A stretch of 64,000 bases of DNA from positions 1,240,001-1,304,000 of the forward strand of contig OZ024748.1 in the NCBI GenBank assembly GCA_964016885.1, given 5' to 3'. Positions 3,790 through 58,525 of the stretch are shown here, piece by piece. Position 1 is the first letter of the stretch. Every line of letters begins with the position of its first letter. Position numbers and translations under genes: made by a program. This DNA is from Eledone cirrhosa (Eukaryota). Under the pieces are notes generated by a model that did no database searches, was not told the DNA's origin, and saw nothing but the letters and a program-made list of their open reading frames with translations.

Positions 3790-3917
3790 CCTAAACTAAC
3801 TTGCACATATGGGAATAGTAACACAGTCTTGTTAACCGAGGTACACTCAATAGGTGATGAAACATTTGTATTTTGTCCACTGGGTACGAAAATTACGTCA
3901 TGTAACTACTGGTGTCC
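3790..3917 (+). CDS. Exon 1 (internal): PKLTCTYG...[18 protein letters not shown], first half of a Cys-rich resistin/PCSK9-CHRD-like module
   Basis: Pyrimidine tract + ctag acceptor, gtaagt donor, phase 0 to 2, joins exon 2 in frame. Confidence 0.75.
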
Positions 3918-57900: not shown

Positions 57901-58525
57901 TGTGTAGTAAGGTTGCTTGGATGCGTCCATAGGCGGTATGCCGGTTGAGCACTCTATGCTCCTTCGGAGCAGAGTATAATAAAATGGAAAATGAAGTATC
58001 ATCGGAACACAATTTATTACGTATTACAATTGTTTCTCCGGCGAACAGCTCGAGGTGTGATCTGTTTGTGGATCGAACCTGACTCTGGATTCGCAAGTTC
58101 CTCCTGAAAGAGGATTTGCTTCGAAATCATTAGACGTATCTGAGGAACTTGCGAATCCAGAGTCAGGTTCGATCCCCAAACAGATCGCACCTCGAACTGT
58201 TCGCCAGAGAAACAATTGTAATACGTAATAAATTGTGTTCCGATGCATCACTAATTCTTCGTTTTCCATATATATATATATATATATATATATATAGTTT
58301 TGCGAGGTTTTTTATATGAAATCGTGTGTCGAAACAAATATTGTTATACTTGGGGAGGGGGGGGGGTATAACTATATATATATATATATATATAATTGTT
58401 TTTTCTAACGTTTACAGAATGATATAAGCGTGCCAACAAGCTTTGGCGATGATTTCCTTGAGGATGTCGTAAACGAAGTCAACGCCGCAGCTGCGGTAGA
58501 GGCCGATGTAGGAAAAGAGAATTAA
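3790..58525 (+). CDS. Multi-exon gene (24 traced exons, ~1,002 aa, 5'-incomplete) for a type I membrane protein with resistin/PCSK9-CHRD-like, EGF, FN2, LamG-like, Gly-rich, WSC and EGF modules, a TM helix and a short tail
   Basis: Manually spliced exons all have AG/GT boundaries and compatible phases, total 3009 nt with no internal stop and end in TAA at 58523-58525. Domain calls come from recognised motifs, not from a database search. Confidence 0.88.
5245..5276 (-). ncRNA. Minimal hammerhead ribozyme motif
   Basis: Minus strand CTGAAGA-AGGGC ttat GCCC-GAAA-CGTC. Confidence 0.6.
6085..6380 (+). mobile_element. Penelope-like (Neptune-type) RT fragment
   Basis: Translates to [15 protein letters not shown]...[13 protein letters not shown]...KALTFA, a degenerate WKNT..VI.WF / FIQFDI..FYPSI motif. 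Confidence 0.6.
6490..7230. repeat. Long interrupted (TA)n microsatellite, one of many (also 15967-16513, 52930-53165, 57510-57890)
   Basis: Direct reading of the sequence. Confidence 0.95.
8863..8963 (+). CDS. Exon 2: [33 protein letters not shown]
   Basis: tttatag acceptor, gtaagt donor, phase 2 to 1. Confidence 0.75.
9511..9910. repeat. 400-bp spacerless palindrome
   Basis: Centre tttgctctga|tcagagcaaa at 9710/9711; arms match by eye out to tatattggta/taccaatata. Confidence 0.92.
10895..13143 (+). repeat. ~2.25-kb degenerate (ACN)n trinucleotide array (poly-Thr-like)
   Basis: ACC/ACA/ACT units with several register shifts, ending directly before the EGF exon. Confidence 0.9.
13154..13306 (+). 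CDS. Exon 3: complete EGF ([27 protein letters not shown]) plus start of second EGF ([15 protein letters not shown])
   Basis: CxNGGTC...CxCxxGYTGxxC motif; cctccctag acceptor gives phase 1 matching exon 2; gtaagg donor. The true 5' boundary could lie further upstream if the Thr repeat is exonic. Confidence 0.85.
14542..14730 (+). mobile_element. Second SINE family (tRNA head + GTCCTTGAGCAAGACACTT core). Also 19826-20020, and minus-strand 21090-21260 and 33590-33725.
   Basis: A/B-box-like head (GAGTGGTTAGA...GTTCGATTCC) and shared CORE-like motif. Confidence 0.65.
15380..15504 (+). CDS. Exon 4: GIC (third Cys of EGF2) then N-half of a fibronectin type II domain ([26 protein letters not shown])
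   Basis: ccccctag/gtaatt, phase 1 to 0; matches FN2 pattern GG..G..CxFPFxxxGxxYxxC. Confidence 0.88.
15535..15722 (+). mobile_element. tRNA-derived SINE, representative copy. Others at ~3985, 18940, 23150, 23972, 24197, 24985, 31443, 45300, 45960, 49757, 52622, and minus-strand at 25690 and 34480.
   Basis: B-box-like GTTCAAATCCC plus shared core GCCTTTCATCCTTACGGGGTCGATAAAATAAAGTACCAG; usually inserted in (ATT)n. Confidence 0.75.
16515..18495 (+). mobile_element. Penelope-like remnant: CNC..CPL..C knuckle + GIY-YIG fragment, long AT-rich 3' region ending in a hammerhead motif
   Basis: [24 protein letters not shown]...NYIGST; hammerhead core at 18402; flanked by (TA)n. Confidence 0.7.
18394..18448 (+). 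ncRNA. Type I hammerhead ribozyme motif
   Basis: CTGATGA, stem II GGACGTAC/GTACATCC, GAAA, stem I CATTTTGT/ATAAAATG. Confidence 0.65.
18731..18865 (+). CDS. Exon 5: start of LamG/pentraxin-like jelly roll ([12 protein letters not shown]...YTISAWVKP)
   Basis: cactag/gtgaga, phase 0 to 0; FDGxxxY and TISAWVKP motifs of Laminin_G_3-type domains. Confidence 0.9.
19313..19795. repeat. Minisatellite, ~73-bp unit, 6-7 copies
   Basis: cctagtagtgctat(a/c)ttttgtatg...gtggtactctatataatatata repeated. Confidence 0.9.
20236..20457 (+). CDS. Exon 6: LamG-like core ([20 protein letters not shown])
   Basis: tttcag/gtaagt, phase 0 to 0; WHxV...LxVNG motif. Confidence 0.9.
21308..21397 (+). CDS. Exon 7: [30 protein letters not shown]
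   Basis: tttacag/gtaact; IGG...FxGxI LamG motif. Confidence 0.9.
22708..22788 (+). CDS. Exon 8: [27 protein letters not shown], end of LamG-like domain
   Basis: gatcag/gtaaga; VxVWNxALT motif. Confidence 0.9.
22978..23101 (+). CDS. Exon 9: [41 protein letters not shown]
   Basis: ttgccag/gtaacg, phase 0 to 1. Confidence 0.85.
23385..23690. repeat. Minisatellite, ~24-25-bp unit
   Basis: ggatcagttaaaagaaaatacagga repeated. Confidence 0.85.
23842..23945 (+). CDS. Exon 10: [35 protein letters not shown]
   Basis: ctaacag/gtgtgt, phase 1 to 0. Confidence 0.85.
24432..24963 (-). mobile_element. R4/Dong-like non-LTR element 3' end (restriction-like endonuclease)
   Basis: [21 protein letters not shown]...IVDVACPFD...GALG; embedded in (ATT)n. 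Shorter copies at 8625-8777 and 25183-25433. Confidence 0.85.
25530..25635 (+). CDS. Exon 11: [18 protein letters not shown]...GRQGGSYS, start of Gly-rich domain
   Basis: aatcag/gtaagt, phase 0 to 1. Confidence 0.87.
26615..26729 (+). CDS. Exon 12: ...[29 protein letters not shown]
   Basis: ttacag/gtaagt, phase 1 to 2. Confidence 0.87.
27455..27606 (+). CDS. Exon 13: ...[24 protein letters not shown]
   Basis: tttcag/gttata, phase 2 to 1. Confidence 0.85.
27670..27908. repeat. Minisatellite, 19-bp unit
   Basis: gcaggtggg(c/t)gttgcctta repeated. Confidence 0.85.
28060..28672 (-). mobile_element. Second R4/Dong-like family RLE fragment, with stop codon
   Basis: [11 protein letters not shown]...ANRPDII...LIDMSVP...KYKDLEIE...VVGALG; flanked by (ATT)n. 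Confidence 0.8.
28741..28864 (+). CDS. Exon 14: [42 protein letters not shown]
   Basis: cactag/gtgagt, phase 1 to 2. Confidence 0.88.
29400..29870 (+). mobile_element. Helitron 3' fragment (PIF1-like helicase C-terminus + CTAG end)
   Basis: [36 protein letters not shown]...[11 protein letters not shown]; ends ggctag|t before (TA)n. Confidence 0.85.
32799..32941 (+). CDS. Exon 15: Cys-rich loop [25 protein letters not shown] then [20 protein letters not shown]
   Basis: aaacag/gtaagt, phase 2 to 1. Confidence 0.88.
33303..33500. repeat. Minisatellite with embedded (GT)n
   Basis: (gt)n-gacag(c/a)tcacacctat repeated 7 times. Confidence 0.85.
35252..35418 (+). CDS. Exon 16: [32 protein letters not shown]..., end of Gly-rich domain
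   Basis: ttacag/gtcaga, phase 1 to 0; GGxGGxGRIxI motif. Confidence 0.87.
36347..38186 (-). mobile_element. Penelope-like element with GIY-YIG C-terminal fragment and ~650-bp inverted duplication of its 3' region
   Basis: LKWKKL...CRLCDL...LLN...CNHR motif; 36347-37005 mirrors 37379-38040. Confidence 0.75.
38229..38354. mobile_element. Mariner-type MITE (~125 bp)
   Basis: About 35-bp TIR TAGGTTGAGGAAAAAGTTCGTGCGCCGTGTTAAAAT and its complement; TA context; end resembles the TTAGGTTG mariner terminus. Confidence 0.7.
38411..38783. repeat. Related ~370-bp near-perfect palindrome
   Basis: Shares accggttgcgcatttc and ttgagatagagtg blocks and the unpaired 3' tail with 9511-9910. Confidence 0.88.
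38837..39866 (-). mobile_element. Second copy of the same RTE/RTEX-like LINE, 5'-inverted, including RT motifs (GVLQGD, FADD)
   Basis: Near-identical to 541-1021; inverted plus-strand RT part 39413-39866 contains a 36-bp triplication. Confidence 0.88.
39958..40121 (+). CDS. Exon 17: start of WSC domain (YLGCFKD...[10 protein letters not shown])
   Basis: ctggtag/gtcttg, phase 0 to 2; YxGCxxD and TxExCxxxC WSC motifs. Confidence 0.88.
40415..40828 (-). mobile_element. Probable Tx1-like LINE 3' end (ORF2 C-terminus + 3' UTR) in (AAT)n
   Basis: [35 protein letters not shown], then AATAAA and (ATT)n tail; perfect hairpin at ~40675-40717. Confidence 0.5.
41640..42052. repeat. Minisatellite, ~52-bp unit, ~8 copies
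   Basis: agtgtaacattagtaggacacagccttaggatgcactccgccatacatattt. Confidence 0.9.
44574..44663 (+). CDS. Exon 18: WSC middle ([17 protein letters not shown])
   Basis: ctgtag/gtaagt, phase 2 to 2; GxECxC motif. Confidence 0.9.
45668..45830 (+). CDS. Exon 19: end of WSC ([15 protein letters not shown]) then resumption of FN2 (KGWCVT)
   Basis: tttcag/gtcagt, phase 2 to 0. Confidence 0.88.
46160..47032. repeat. GT-rich low-complexity array (GTGTG/TGG)
   Basis: Direct reading of the sequence. Confidence 0.9.
47068..47163 (+). CDS. Exon 20: FN2 end (PKWGEC) and EGF2 C-half ([15 protein letters not shown])
   Basis: cctcag/gtatag, phase 0 to 0. Confidence 0.9.
47164..48700. repeat. Minisatellite, 24-bp unit, ~1.5 kb
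   Basis: gtatagttagccctctataaccca variants. Confidence 0.92.
48735..48876 (+). CDS. Exon 21: MEGF10/SCARF-type EGF ([40 protein letters not shown])
   Basis: ctgcag/gtaaat, phase 0 to 1; CxxxxWGxxCxxxCxC...GxCxCxxGWTGxxC pattern. Confidence 0.92.
50829..50903 (+). ncRNA. Type I hammerhead ribozyme motif
   Basis: CTGAAGA, stem II GTCCG/CGGAC, GAAA, palindromic ACCATGGT, GTC cleavage triplet, stem I CTTC/GAGG. Confidence 0.75.
51646..51683 (-). ncRNA. Minimal hammerhead ribozyme motif
   Basis: Minus strand GGT-CTGACGA-GCT...AGC-GAAA-CACGCGTC-ACC. Confidence 0.7.
53389..53415 (+). CDS. Micro-exon 22a (27 nt, ACEPGNDSQ)
   Basis: Strong pyrimidine tract + ttcag, gtaagg donor, symmetric phase 1-1. 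Confidence 0.65.
54341..54367 (+). CDS. Micro-exon 22b, identical duplicate of 22a
   Basis: Same 27 nt and splice sites within a ~950-bp tandem duplication. Confidence 0.55.
55370..55920 (-). mobile_element. Penelope-like GIY-YIG fragment
   Basis: [11 protein letters not shown]...[16 protein letters not shown]...STKLASHVW...CGLCIDE. Confidence 0.8.
56632..56667 (+). ncRNA. Minimal hammerhead ribozyme motif (same family on minus strand at 36146-36181; degenerate copy at ~20717-20750)
   Basis: TCTT-CTGATGA-AGGAC tagc GTCC-GAAA-CGTTA-AGA. Confidence 0.7.
56919..57067 (+). CDS. Exon 23: transmembrane helix ([25 protein letters not shown]) plus KRKK stop-transfer
   Basis: ttatag/gtaagt, phase 1 to 0; hydrophobic helix followed by basic cluster. 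Confidence 0.93.
58418..58525 (+). CDS. Terminal coding exon: [35 protein letters not shown]
   Basis: ctaac branch point + tttacag acceptor, phase 0, TAA stop. Confidence 0.85.
   Translation, partial: NDISVPTSFGDDFLEDVVNEVNAAAAVEADVGKEN

What the first reader, a model, noticed from the sequence alone, without database searches (positions are those of the whole stretch)
3790..58525. Unusual mosaic single-pass receptor combining three candidate glycan or pattern-binding modules
Seen: 24 phase-compatible exons encode LamG/pentraxin-like, Gly-rich and WSC domains above an MEGF/SCARF-like EGF stalk, a TM helix and a ~53-aa non-catalytic tail with one Tyr (KYETHE) and an acidic patch (DDFLED). Established: WSC and LamG/ConA-like folds often bind carbohydrate, FN2 binds collagen, and MEGF10/SCARF EGF stalks mark scavenger receptors. 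Inference: a possibly uncharacterised invertebrate pattern-recognition, scavenger or adhesion receptor. I cannot match it to a named gene.
Basis: partly seen in the sequence, partly recalled or inferred. Interest (0 to 1): 0.75.

Follow-up and report, generated by a model that had tools for sequence, protein, structure and literature searches.

The report
Ancient nested-domain animal surface receptor
This is the rear part of a cephalopod gene for a cell-surface receptor that belongs to an apparently unstudied family shared by sponges, a sea squirt and molluscs, whose binding modules are packed inside one another like Russian dolls instead of being strung in a row.

Summary
The gene is real: 25 AG/GT exons at 3790-58525 (+) give one open frame of 1011 aa (24 exons if one of two duplicated 27-bp exons is skipped); its 5' part lies upstream of the window. 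It is not a one-off mosaic. It belongs to a family of at least 30 unnamed or mis-named proteins from molluscs, Ciona and homoscleromorph sponges (34-51% identity). A fibronectin type II (FN2) domain is split, with about 650 residues (pentraxin-like LamG, Gly-rich, WSC) between its halves; cysteine pattern and an AlphaFold model of a limpet relative suggest that an EGF module around it and the LamG inside it are split too. Relatives add an N-terminal GON domain and either a long EGF stalk with an NPx(Y) tail or, in Oscarella lobularis, a tyrosine kinase. This copy has only one whole stalk repeat and no NP motif, so 'MEGF/SCARF-like stalk' fits the family, not this gene. The Gly-rich domain is predicted as a beta-helix with ordered glycine segments; its closest non-animal relatives found include myxobacterial proteins. 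Ligand and function are untested.

The parts
3790..3917 (+). Exon 1 in window (phase 0 to 2): Cys-rich module of no assigned Pfam family; gene continues upstream of the window
   Evidence: (tblastn of P0005 E 4e-6); no Pfam hit
8863..8963 (+). Exon 2 (phase 2 to 1; tandem acceptor, 8866 also possible): end of the Cys-rich module
   Evidence: found by phase scan; aligns with the matching segment of relatives
10891..13150 (.). ACC/ACA/ACT compound repeat that reads as broken poly-Thr; intronic in the best model
   Evidence: (four frame switches, no AG at its start)
13154..13306 (+). Exon 3: whole EGF module, then first two Cys (13258, 13294) of the split EGF
15380..15504 (+). Exon 4: third Cys of the split EGF (15385) and first half of FN2 (Cys at 15445, 15487)
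   Evidence: Pfam fn2 positions 1-19 of 42, E 0.0012
18731..23025 (+). Exons 5-9 (18731-18865, 20236-20457, 21308-21397, 22708-22788, 22978-23101): LamG/pentraxin-like domain, with an odd Cys at 18749
   Evidence: fold matches to PAPP-A LG, PTX3 for the limpet model
23032..35418 (+). Exons 9-16 (23842-23945, 25530-25635, 26615-26729, 27455-27606, 28741-28864, 32799-32941, 35252-35418): Gly-rich domain, about 325 aa, 22% Gly; predicted beta-helix plus ordered Gly segments
39958..45740 (+). Exons 17-19 (39958-40121, 44574-44663, 45668-45830): WSC domain, 8 Cys
   Evidence: Pfam WSC positions 1-34, 37-62, 68-82 of 82
45759..45797 (+). Return strand with Cys at 45789, inferred to close the LamG domain
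45798..47088 (+). Second half of FN2 across exons 19-20 (Cys at 45801, 47083)
   Evidence: aligned stretch of relatives matches Pfam fn2 positions 24-42 of 42
47116..47160 (+). Second half of the split EGF (Cys at 47122, 47128, 47155) in exon 20 (47068-47163)
   Evidence: (EGF_2 positions 20-32 of 32, E 0.043)
48735..48876 (+). Exon 21: the only whole laminin/MEGF-type EGF stalk repeat
53389..53415 (+). Exon 22, 27 bp, one Cys; first copy in a 967-bp tandem duplication
54341..54367 (+). Exon 23, identical second copy of the 27-bp exon
56919..57067 (+). Exon 24: TM helix (56948-57010), basic stop-transfer stretch and the single tail Tyr
58418..58525 (+). Exon 25: rest of the tail with acidic patch, stop codon; AATAAA at 58783, 58902, 59051

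Best explanation
The window holds the last 1011 codons of the cephalopod member of an old animal family of type I membrane receptors. SHOWN by sequence: family order is signal peptide, GON (with a WSC inserted in molluscs), EGF, Cys-rich modules, EGF, then a head in which an FN2 domain is cut in two by LamG, Gly-rich and WSC domains, then an EGF stalk, TM and either a short NP-motif tail or a tyrosine kinase. INFERRED: the two FN2 halves, two EGF halves and the two ends of the LamG meet again at the base of the head and are tied by about four disulfides across the 650-residue insert (window residues 124-848, 150-820, 164-835, 176-816), so the binding modules form one stapled, compact head on top of the stalk. 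INFERRED, weaker: the head is a multi-site recognition unit for large extracellular ligands (glycans, matrix or microbial surfaces). Long-stalk members work like MEGF10/CED-1-type uptake receptors through the NP motif; the Oscarella members signal as RTKs. This copy, with the stalk cut to one repeat and the NP motif lost, most likely stays at the surface as a close-range adhesion or co-receptor. Confidence: family membership about 0.97, split FN2 about 0.9, full EGF-FN2-LamG nesting about 0.7, ligand-capture role of this kind about 0.45; the number given is for structure plus general role together.
For: Family; identity 34-51% over window residues 1-860 for 17 relatives. FN2 halves: Pfam positions 1-19 in the window, 1-29 in Lottia E 6.6e-5, MMP9/MMP2/fibronectin hits to the Lottia first half E 7.6e-5 to 0.017; positions 24-42 E 9e-4 in the second half, 2 of 6 stretches, the only family hit; 4 of 6 weak PDB hits are FN2 proteins. 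Both Cys of each inferred cross-insert pair are kept in 28 of 28, 25 of 28, 27 of 27 and 25 of 28 rows that cover both. AlphaFold model of Lottia 457-1241: pLDDT 85.9, pTM 0.81; most LamG/pentraxin matches run from model residue about 95-100 to 737-743, past the Gly-rich and WSC domains. A second insertion, WSC in GON, is present in 10 of 10 molluscan-type rows and absent in 5 of 5 sponge rows where the closing motif was found (16 rows examined). Tails. MEGF10/CED-1 use of NPxY: PMC8092387, passages.
Against: No RNA or protein evidence for this gene's splicing. pLDDT is only 56-74 over the EGF parts. Second-half FN2 scores lie below Pfam's cut-off (19.6 against 22.2 bits), 4 of 6 stretches did not match and the PDB hits are not significant (E 0.4-6). 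Joined EGF halves did not score above the second half alone (15.7 against 16.8 bits median, 27 rows). P0028 and P0029 lost one Cys of two inferred pairs without losing the partner. The model is of a 41%-identical relative. No ligand evidence at all; the best LamG matches include non-lectin domains (PAPP-A LG) and the best WSC matches are Kremen1, recalled as a protein binder.
Confidence: 0.55

Rival explanations
1. Signalling receptor for a peptide or protein ligand. The Gly-rich domain is the ligand site, as the glycine-rich domain is in ALK; sponge members signal through their own kinase, and kinase-less members such as this one act as co-receptors or decoys, as Kremen does through its WSC.
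For: 5 of 30 relatives carry a tyrosine-kinase-type tail. The Gly-rich model has long confident segments without helix or strand, compatible with a polyglycine II bundle; ALK and phage gp38 use such bundles to bind peptides or surface proteins (10.1101/2023.11.25.568672, passages). Closest solved WSC is Kremen1.
Against: No ALK/LTK Gly-rich Pfam match; the fold matches are bacterial adhesin beta-helices. 18 of 23 relatives with a TM have no kinase. No ligand candidate.
Confidence: 0.25
2. Linear mosaic: the Cys-rich pieces around the insert are degenerate half-domains or small local disulfide knots, and nothing is stapled across the insert.
For: Sub-threshold scores for each half; EGF join test inconclusive; low pLDDT at the EGF ends.
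Against: The halves match complementary, non-overlapping parts of the FN2 model in the right order; all the Cys concerned are kept from sponges to this gene; pTM 0.81 for 785 residues and LamG matches that end at residue about 740.
Confidence: 0.12
3. This copy is a decaying or mis-assembled paralogue: the short stalk and lost NP motif reflect loss of function or missing exons in the assembly.
For: Long branch (0.83 against a median end branch of 0.31); only 68% identity to the partial O. bimaculoides protein; a 967-bp duplication in the stalk region.
Against: No stop or frameshift in 1011 codons, all splice sites canonical, nearly all family Cys kept; P0026 also has a shortened stalk (375 residues) and some sponge kinases have short ones.
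Confidence: 0.08

Closest known systems
MEGF10 / Draper / CED-1 engulfment receptors (and SCARF1, recalled)
   Same: Single-pass, laminin-type EGF stalk and NPxY tail in the long-stalk relatives; one relative is auto-named MEG11-like and another MEGF10.
   Different: No EMI domain hit; a GON domain and a 750-residue nested head sit on top. The window's copy has one stalk repeat, no NPxY and no ITAM or YxxL.
ALK/LTK receptor tyrosine kinases
   Same: Large Gly-rich extracellular domain near an EGF module; kinase in the Oscarella lobularis members.
   Different: No ALK_LTK Gly-rich, MAM or LDLa Pfam hit; Gly-rich domain predicted on a beta-helix; no kinase in this gene.
Kremen1 (kringle-WSC-CUB, layout recalled)
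   Same: WSC domain in a single-pass receptor with a short tail; best solved WSC match (E 2e-11; Z 15.4).
   Different: No kringle or CUB hit; WSC lies inside an FN2 insert.
PAPP-A LG domain, pentraxin domains (PTX3, SAP), Bacteroides BACOVA_03559
   Same: Best fold matches of the LamG domain (Z 17-21.5, rmsd 2.4-3.1 over 180-196 residues).
   Different: 11-17% identity; the domain appears to be closed by a strand 450 residues downstream; binding-site residues were not compared.
ADAMTS9/20 and GON-1 GON domain
   Same: GON domain (E 1e-23 to 1e-36) at the N-terminus of relatives; upstream of this window.
   Different: PMC3338439 (passages) reports GON at the C-terminal end of the proteins it lists; here it is N-terminal and, in molluscs, split by a WSC.
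Myxobacterial (Polyangia) Gly-rich surface proteins and two-partner-secretion beta-helices
   Same: Gly-rich domain matches L003 (Polyangia) and two unnamed metagenome proteins at 167-170 bits including the Cys-bearing motif before the last Gly run; beta-helix fold Z about 10.
   Different: Those proteins lack the LamG-WSC-FN2 nesting; the fold match covers only about 130 of 324 residues.

Membership tests
Unnamed GON / nested FN2-LamG-Gly-WSC receptor family (defined here) | LamG, Gly-rich and WSC domains in order, matching family profiles | tested here: met
   238, 321 and 89 bits against profiles built without the window protein
Unnamed GON / nested FN2-LamG-Gly-WSC receptor family (defined here) | Split FN2 and split EGF cysteine sets around the insert | tested here: met
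   All motifs found, 661 residues apart; alignment
Unnamed GON / nested FN2-LamG-Gly-WSC receptor family (defined here) | N-terminal signal peptide and GON domain | not testable with these tools
   Upstream of the window; no genome held
Unnamed GON / nested FN2-LamG-Gly-WSC receptor family (defined here) | NP motif in a kinase-less tail | tested here: not met
   18 of 18 relatives have it, the window tail does not; read as a derived loss
Fibronectin type II domain (PF00040) | Four Cys and the aromatic motifs of both halves | tested here: met
   Positions 1-19 and 24-42 (in relatives), each under the curated cut-off
Fibronectin type II domain (PF00040) | Halves fold into one domain with 1-3, 2-4 disulfides (pattern recalled) | tested here: inconclusive
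   Model confident there (pLDDT about 80-86) but coordinates not seen; no FN2 chain among the 50 rows
MEGF10/Draper/CED-1 | EMI domain (PMC8092387) | tested here: not met
   No EMI hit in full-length relatives; the window lacks the N-terminus
MEGF10/Draper/CED-1 | Long run of EGF-like repeats | tested here: not met
   One whole repeat in this gene; met by long-stalk relatives
MEGF10/Draper/CED-1 | NPxY and ITAM/YxxL in the tail | tested here: not met
   One Tyr, in neither motif
ALK/LTK | Tyrosine kinase domain | tested here: not met
   53-54 aa tail then stop
ALK/LTK | ALK-type Gly-rich domain by sequence | tested here: not met
   No such Pfam hit on exons or whole relatives
ALK/LTK | Polyglycine II bundle fold | tested here: inconclusive
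   Ordered non-helix, non-strand Gly segments; ALK not listed, gp38 only at E 2.6-2.7
Crumbs (automatic name of XP_052830094.1) | C-terminal ERLI motif and several LamG domains among EGF repeats (recalled) | tested here: not met
   One LamG; tail ends otherwise
Pattern-recognition lectin receptor (functional class) | Binding to glycans or microbes | not testable with these tools
   Needs binding assays

The most novel reading that the evidence does not exclude
An undescribed receptor family older than the sponge-bilaterian split, whose head is a three-deep nest (EGF around FN2 around LamG around Gly-rich plus WSC) locked by cross-insert disulfides, with a 42-residue FN2 hosting an insert 15 times its size. 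The same head was wired to a tyrosine kinase or to an uptake tail, and its beta-helix/polyglycine domain was shared with myxobacteria, possibly by transfer into early animals, giving them a bacterial-adhesin-like sensor for microbes or food particles.
Probability: 0.3. Interest if true: 0.8.

Novelty: new variant of a known kind. Interest (0 to 1): 0.6.

Why it matters
Extracellular receptors are normally read as beads on a string, and annotation pipelines have named members of this family 'crumbs', 'MEG11-like' or 'MEGF10' from the EGF repeats alone. A survey of domain insertion (PMC13114784, section 2.2 part 1 and passages) finds inserts smaller than hosts in 77% of events (medians 115 and 199 residues) and deep nesting in a minority; a 42-residue disulfide domain holding 650 residues is far out on that scale and is a natural design for stapling several binding modules together. 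One ectodomain found both on tyrosine kinases and on NPxY-tail receptors in sponges gives a test case for how signalling and uptake receptors swap heads. For cephalopods and farmed bivalves it is a concrete, testable candidate recognition receptor.

Tried and rejected
Mucin stalk: the ACN repeat at 10891-13150 looked like a poly-Thr exon that would mend a phase clash; rejected after the true exon 8863-8963 was found. No AG lies at its start and it changes frame four times. Laying three runs on 10250-11010 could not test that acceptor because 10890 onward was skipped as repeat. No RNA holder listed. No whole genome held. Word-based search with the 74-aa exon found nothing among 33 candidates; the full phmmer search did. 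Complex prediction of the two Lottia halves, without alignments: no answer, score 0.01, not evidence either way. Own EGF profile on joined halves: inconclusive. Profile search of PDB with alignment A1 was swamped by kinases. Foldseek on the Gly-rich model: nothing at E<=0.001; no FN2, EGF or ALK chain among the rows shown. ESM Atlas: Gly-rich part gave only unnamed clusters at 0.89-0.90, the Cys-rich module no usable hit; my impression that this module resembles resistin/PCSK9 repeats is from recall and untested. No cnidarian, annelid, arthropod, echinoderm or vertebrate member was named, but both scored only 8000 candidates in set length ranges, so this is not absence. Earlier findings of the scan: none. 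Paper searches for the architecture or for six accession/locus names found no description (listings only; the library lacks most subscription papers and supplements were not searched). Names rejected: crumbs, MEGF10/11, ALK, Kremen.

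
Full report
1. What is in the window. The DNA is AT-rich, intron-rich animal sequence full of microsatellites. Reading all of it except part of the repeat at 12001-12899, I placed 24 exons by eye and checked their ends. Exons from 13154 onward made one open frame, but the exon at 3790-3917 ended in phase 2 while the next began in phase 1. A phase scan found the missing exon at 8863-8963. The final model has 25 exons, all AG acceptors and GT donors, 3036 nt, 1011 aa and a stop at 58525. 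It starts in mid-protein; no upstream exon was found in 1-3789. Two of the 25 exons are identical 27-bp copies in a 967-bp tandem duplication of 96% identity, which probably explains the count of 24. The taxon is inferred as an octopod: the closest named protein is Octopus bimaculoides XP_052830094.1, 68% identical over 225 columns.

2. It is a family, not a one-off. A search with the longest exon gave 16 hits, led by that octopus protein and including Lottia and Batillaria proteins. Searches with the Lottia head and with a 16-row alignment gave 30 proteins with the same head: 20 from named gastropods and bivalves, 1 from Ciona intestinalis, 8 from homoscleromorph sponges (Oscarella lobularis 6, O. 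pearsei 1, Corticium 1) and 1 unnamed (P0026). Seventeen aligned to the window protein are 34-51% identical over its first 860 residues. All are 'uncharacterized', 'hypothetical' or auto-named from their EGF repeats. P0026 (1591 aa, signal-like N-terminus to tail) lies unbroken on contigs of 5.3-5.5 kb, so the domain order exists as one reading frame; I infer an assembled transcript. A tree of the Gly-rich domain (33 rows: 27 animal, 6 other; rows under 85 bits or without near-full coverage were left out, among them P0025 and P0030-32) groups sponges (100/98), molluscs (99/99) and the window protein with P0026 (100/99), with Ciona between; the root is midpoint only. This fits vertical descent from before the sponge-bilaterian split.

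3. The architecture is nested. In the window, Pfam fn2 matches only positions 1-19 of 42, in exon 15380. A W-C ... W-G-x-C motif appears 661 residues later, across exons 45668 and 47068. Both motifs were found by strict patterns in 22 of 31 relatives examined, 616-677 residues apart (the misses are partial proteins or pattern failures). Six second-half stretches from relatives were scanned: 2 of 6 matched fn2 positions 24-42 (best E 9e-4, 19.6 bits, cut-off 22.2) and no other family matched; as a profile they drew 6 weak PDB hits, 4 of them FN2 proteins (E 0.47-6.2). The Lottia first half hits MMP9, MMP2 and fibronectin. Outside the FN2 halves lie three Cys before and three Cys after, the latter matching the end of EGF models: an EGF cut in its main hairpin, by inference. 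Inside, the LamG has one Cys without a partner at its start and another just before the second FN2 half. In the 31-row alignment both Cys of the four inferred cross-insert pairs are kept in 28 of 28, 25 of 28, 27 of 27 and 25 of 28 rows that cover both. AlphaFold on Lottia 457-1241 with that alignment gave pLDDT 85.9 and pTM 0.81, and most LamG/pentraxin chains align from model residue about 95-100 to 737-743, that is past the Gly-rich and WSC domains. Against this: I could not see coordinates; EGF ends have pLDDT 56-74; my test of joined EGF halves was inconclusive; two sponge kinases lost single Cys of these pairs. A separate insertion supports the habit: a WSC sits inside the GON domain in 10 of 10 molluscan-type rows and in none of 5 sponge rows where the closing motif was found (Pfam GON stops at position 161 of 199 in Lottia and P0026).

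4. Stalk and tail. Of 30 relatives, 7 had no TM found (partial), 5 have kinase-type tails (all O. lobularis) and 18 are kinase-less; all 18 have an NP motif in the tail and 10 have NPxY, with two each in the Corticium and O. pearsei proteins by strict count. Long-stalk members have about 910-1250 residues between head and membrane; P0026 has 375; the window protein has 121, with one whole repeat, and has an acidic patch where P0026 has its NPxY. No hidden EGF exon was found in 48877-56918. So the MEGF-like stalk and uptake motif belong to the family and are lost here.

5. The Gly-rich domain. It has no Pfam match. Folded alone (P0026 stretch, 32 rows) it gives pLDDT 88.7, pTM 0.88, with beta-strands at both ends and long confident stretches that are neither helix nor strand. 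Best fold matches are beta-helices of bacterial two-partner secretion domains (Z 10.4, rmsd 3.0, 129 of 324 residues; middling and not far above unrelated beta-helices); Foldseek found nothing significant, with phage gp38 at E 2.6-2.7. I infer a beta-helix carrying a polyglycine II bundle; such bundles bind ligands in ALK and gp38 (10.1101/2023.11.25.568672, passages). Many prokaryote-type surface proteins carry a related domain; the best score 167-170 bits (P0055, P0057, L003). L001 and L003, the two best of 5 confirmed loci among 609 pattern matches, are Polyangia. The animal rows form one side of a branch (99/96); direction of any transfer is not shown. A LamG of the same subtype also occurs in unnamed prokaryote-type proteins (P0006, P0056, P0066; 126-155 bits).

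6. How it most likely works. Shown: a type I membrane protein of this family with a split FN2. Inferred: the chain leaves the EGF/FN2 base, builds LamG, Gly-rich and WSC domains, returns and is stapled by about four disulfides into one compact head. Inferred with less support: the head captures large extracellular ligands. From general knowledge (recalled), WSC and LamG/pentraxin folds often bind glycans and FN2 binds gelatin, but Kremen's WSC and PAPP-A's LG show the same folds in other uses. Long-stalk members would work like MEGF10/CED-1, whose NPxY recruits PTB adaptors (PMC8092387, passages); the Oscarella kinases would signal directly; this copy would act at short range as an adhesion or co-receptor. 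The main rival is a peptide-ligand receptor or decoy built on the Gly-rich domain.

7. Relation to known systems and novelty. It works like, but is not a member of, the MEGF10/Draper/CED-1 family (no EMI hit, no NPxY or long stalk here), ALK/LTK (no kinase here, no sequence match), Kremen or Crumbs. GON-domain proteins outside ADAMTS are noted in PMC3338439 (passages), which places GON at the C-terminal end; its supplementary table was not read and could list a member. Five searches for the architecture or accessions found no description (listings only). Domain insertion is itself known; PMC13114784 (section 2.2 part 1 and passages) reports inserts smaller than hosts in 77% of events, which makes this case unusual. 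Verdict: real gene, new variant of a known kind (mosaic single-pass EGF-stalk receptor) with an unusual nested head and an old, patchily detected family; function untested. Interest 0.6.

Noticed in passing
window 53260-55167: 967-bp tandem duplication (96% identical) copies a 27-bp one-Cys exon. Using both copies gives two Cys eight residues apart, the spacing of the linker pair in the stalk repeat; using one leaves an unpaired Cys near the membrane that could link dimers. An assembly artefact is not excluded.
   Followed up: partly
window 10891-13150: 2.25-kb ACC/ACA/ACT compound repeat ending right at the acceptor of the EGF exon; it mimics a mucin exon of about 720 Thr codons.
   Followed up: yes
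window 60000-64000 (+): Two broken, partly repeated LINE-type retrotransposon copies with endonuclease and reverse transcriptase matches.
   Followed up: partly
window 538-882 and 38993-39337; 39421-39954: A 345-bp repeat 99% identical at two places, the second next to a reverse transcriptase fragment: a recently active element.
   Followed up: no
window 9505-9915, 14988-15177, 30561-31240, 36347-38040, 38409-38785: Several near-perfect intronic palindromes or inverted repeats of 190-700 bp, possibly foldback elements or long-read artefacts.
   Followed up: no
window 2940-3785 (-): 282-aa open stretch without Pfam match; by eye like the 3' part of a Penelope-type element (recalled), ending next to exon 1's acceptor.
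   Followed up: no
P0028-P0032, P0050 (Oscarella lobularis): Six proteins on two contigs carry the head, five with kinase-type tails; P0028 adds SRCR domains and three lack the Cys-rich modules. Looks like a local RTK expansion.
   Followed up: partly
P0019, P0048, P0049 (Sinanodonta woodiana): Three neighbouring locus numbers on one contig length: a tandem expansion of the family in a freshwater mussel.
   Followed up: no
P0075, P0085 (Anaeramoeba), P0122 (Pelomyxa): Protist B-box/RING-type proteins carry a related Gly-rich domain (64-113 bits), so the domain also occurs in apparently cytoplasmic proteins.
   Followed up: no
P0006, P0056, P0066: Large prokaryote-type proteins hold a LamG subtype with the same adjacent-Cys motif as this family (126-155 bits against 20-50 for other LamG domains).
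   Followed up: partly
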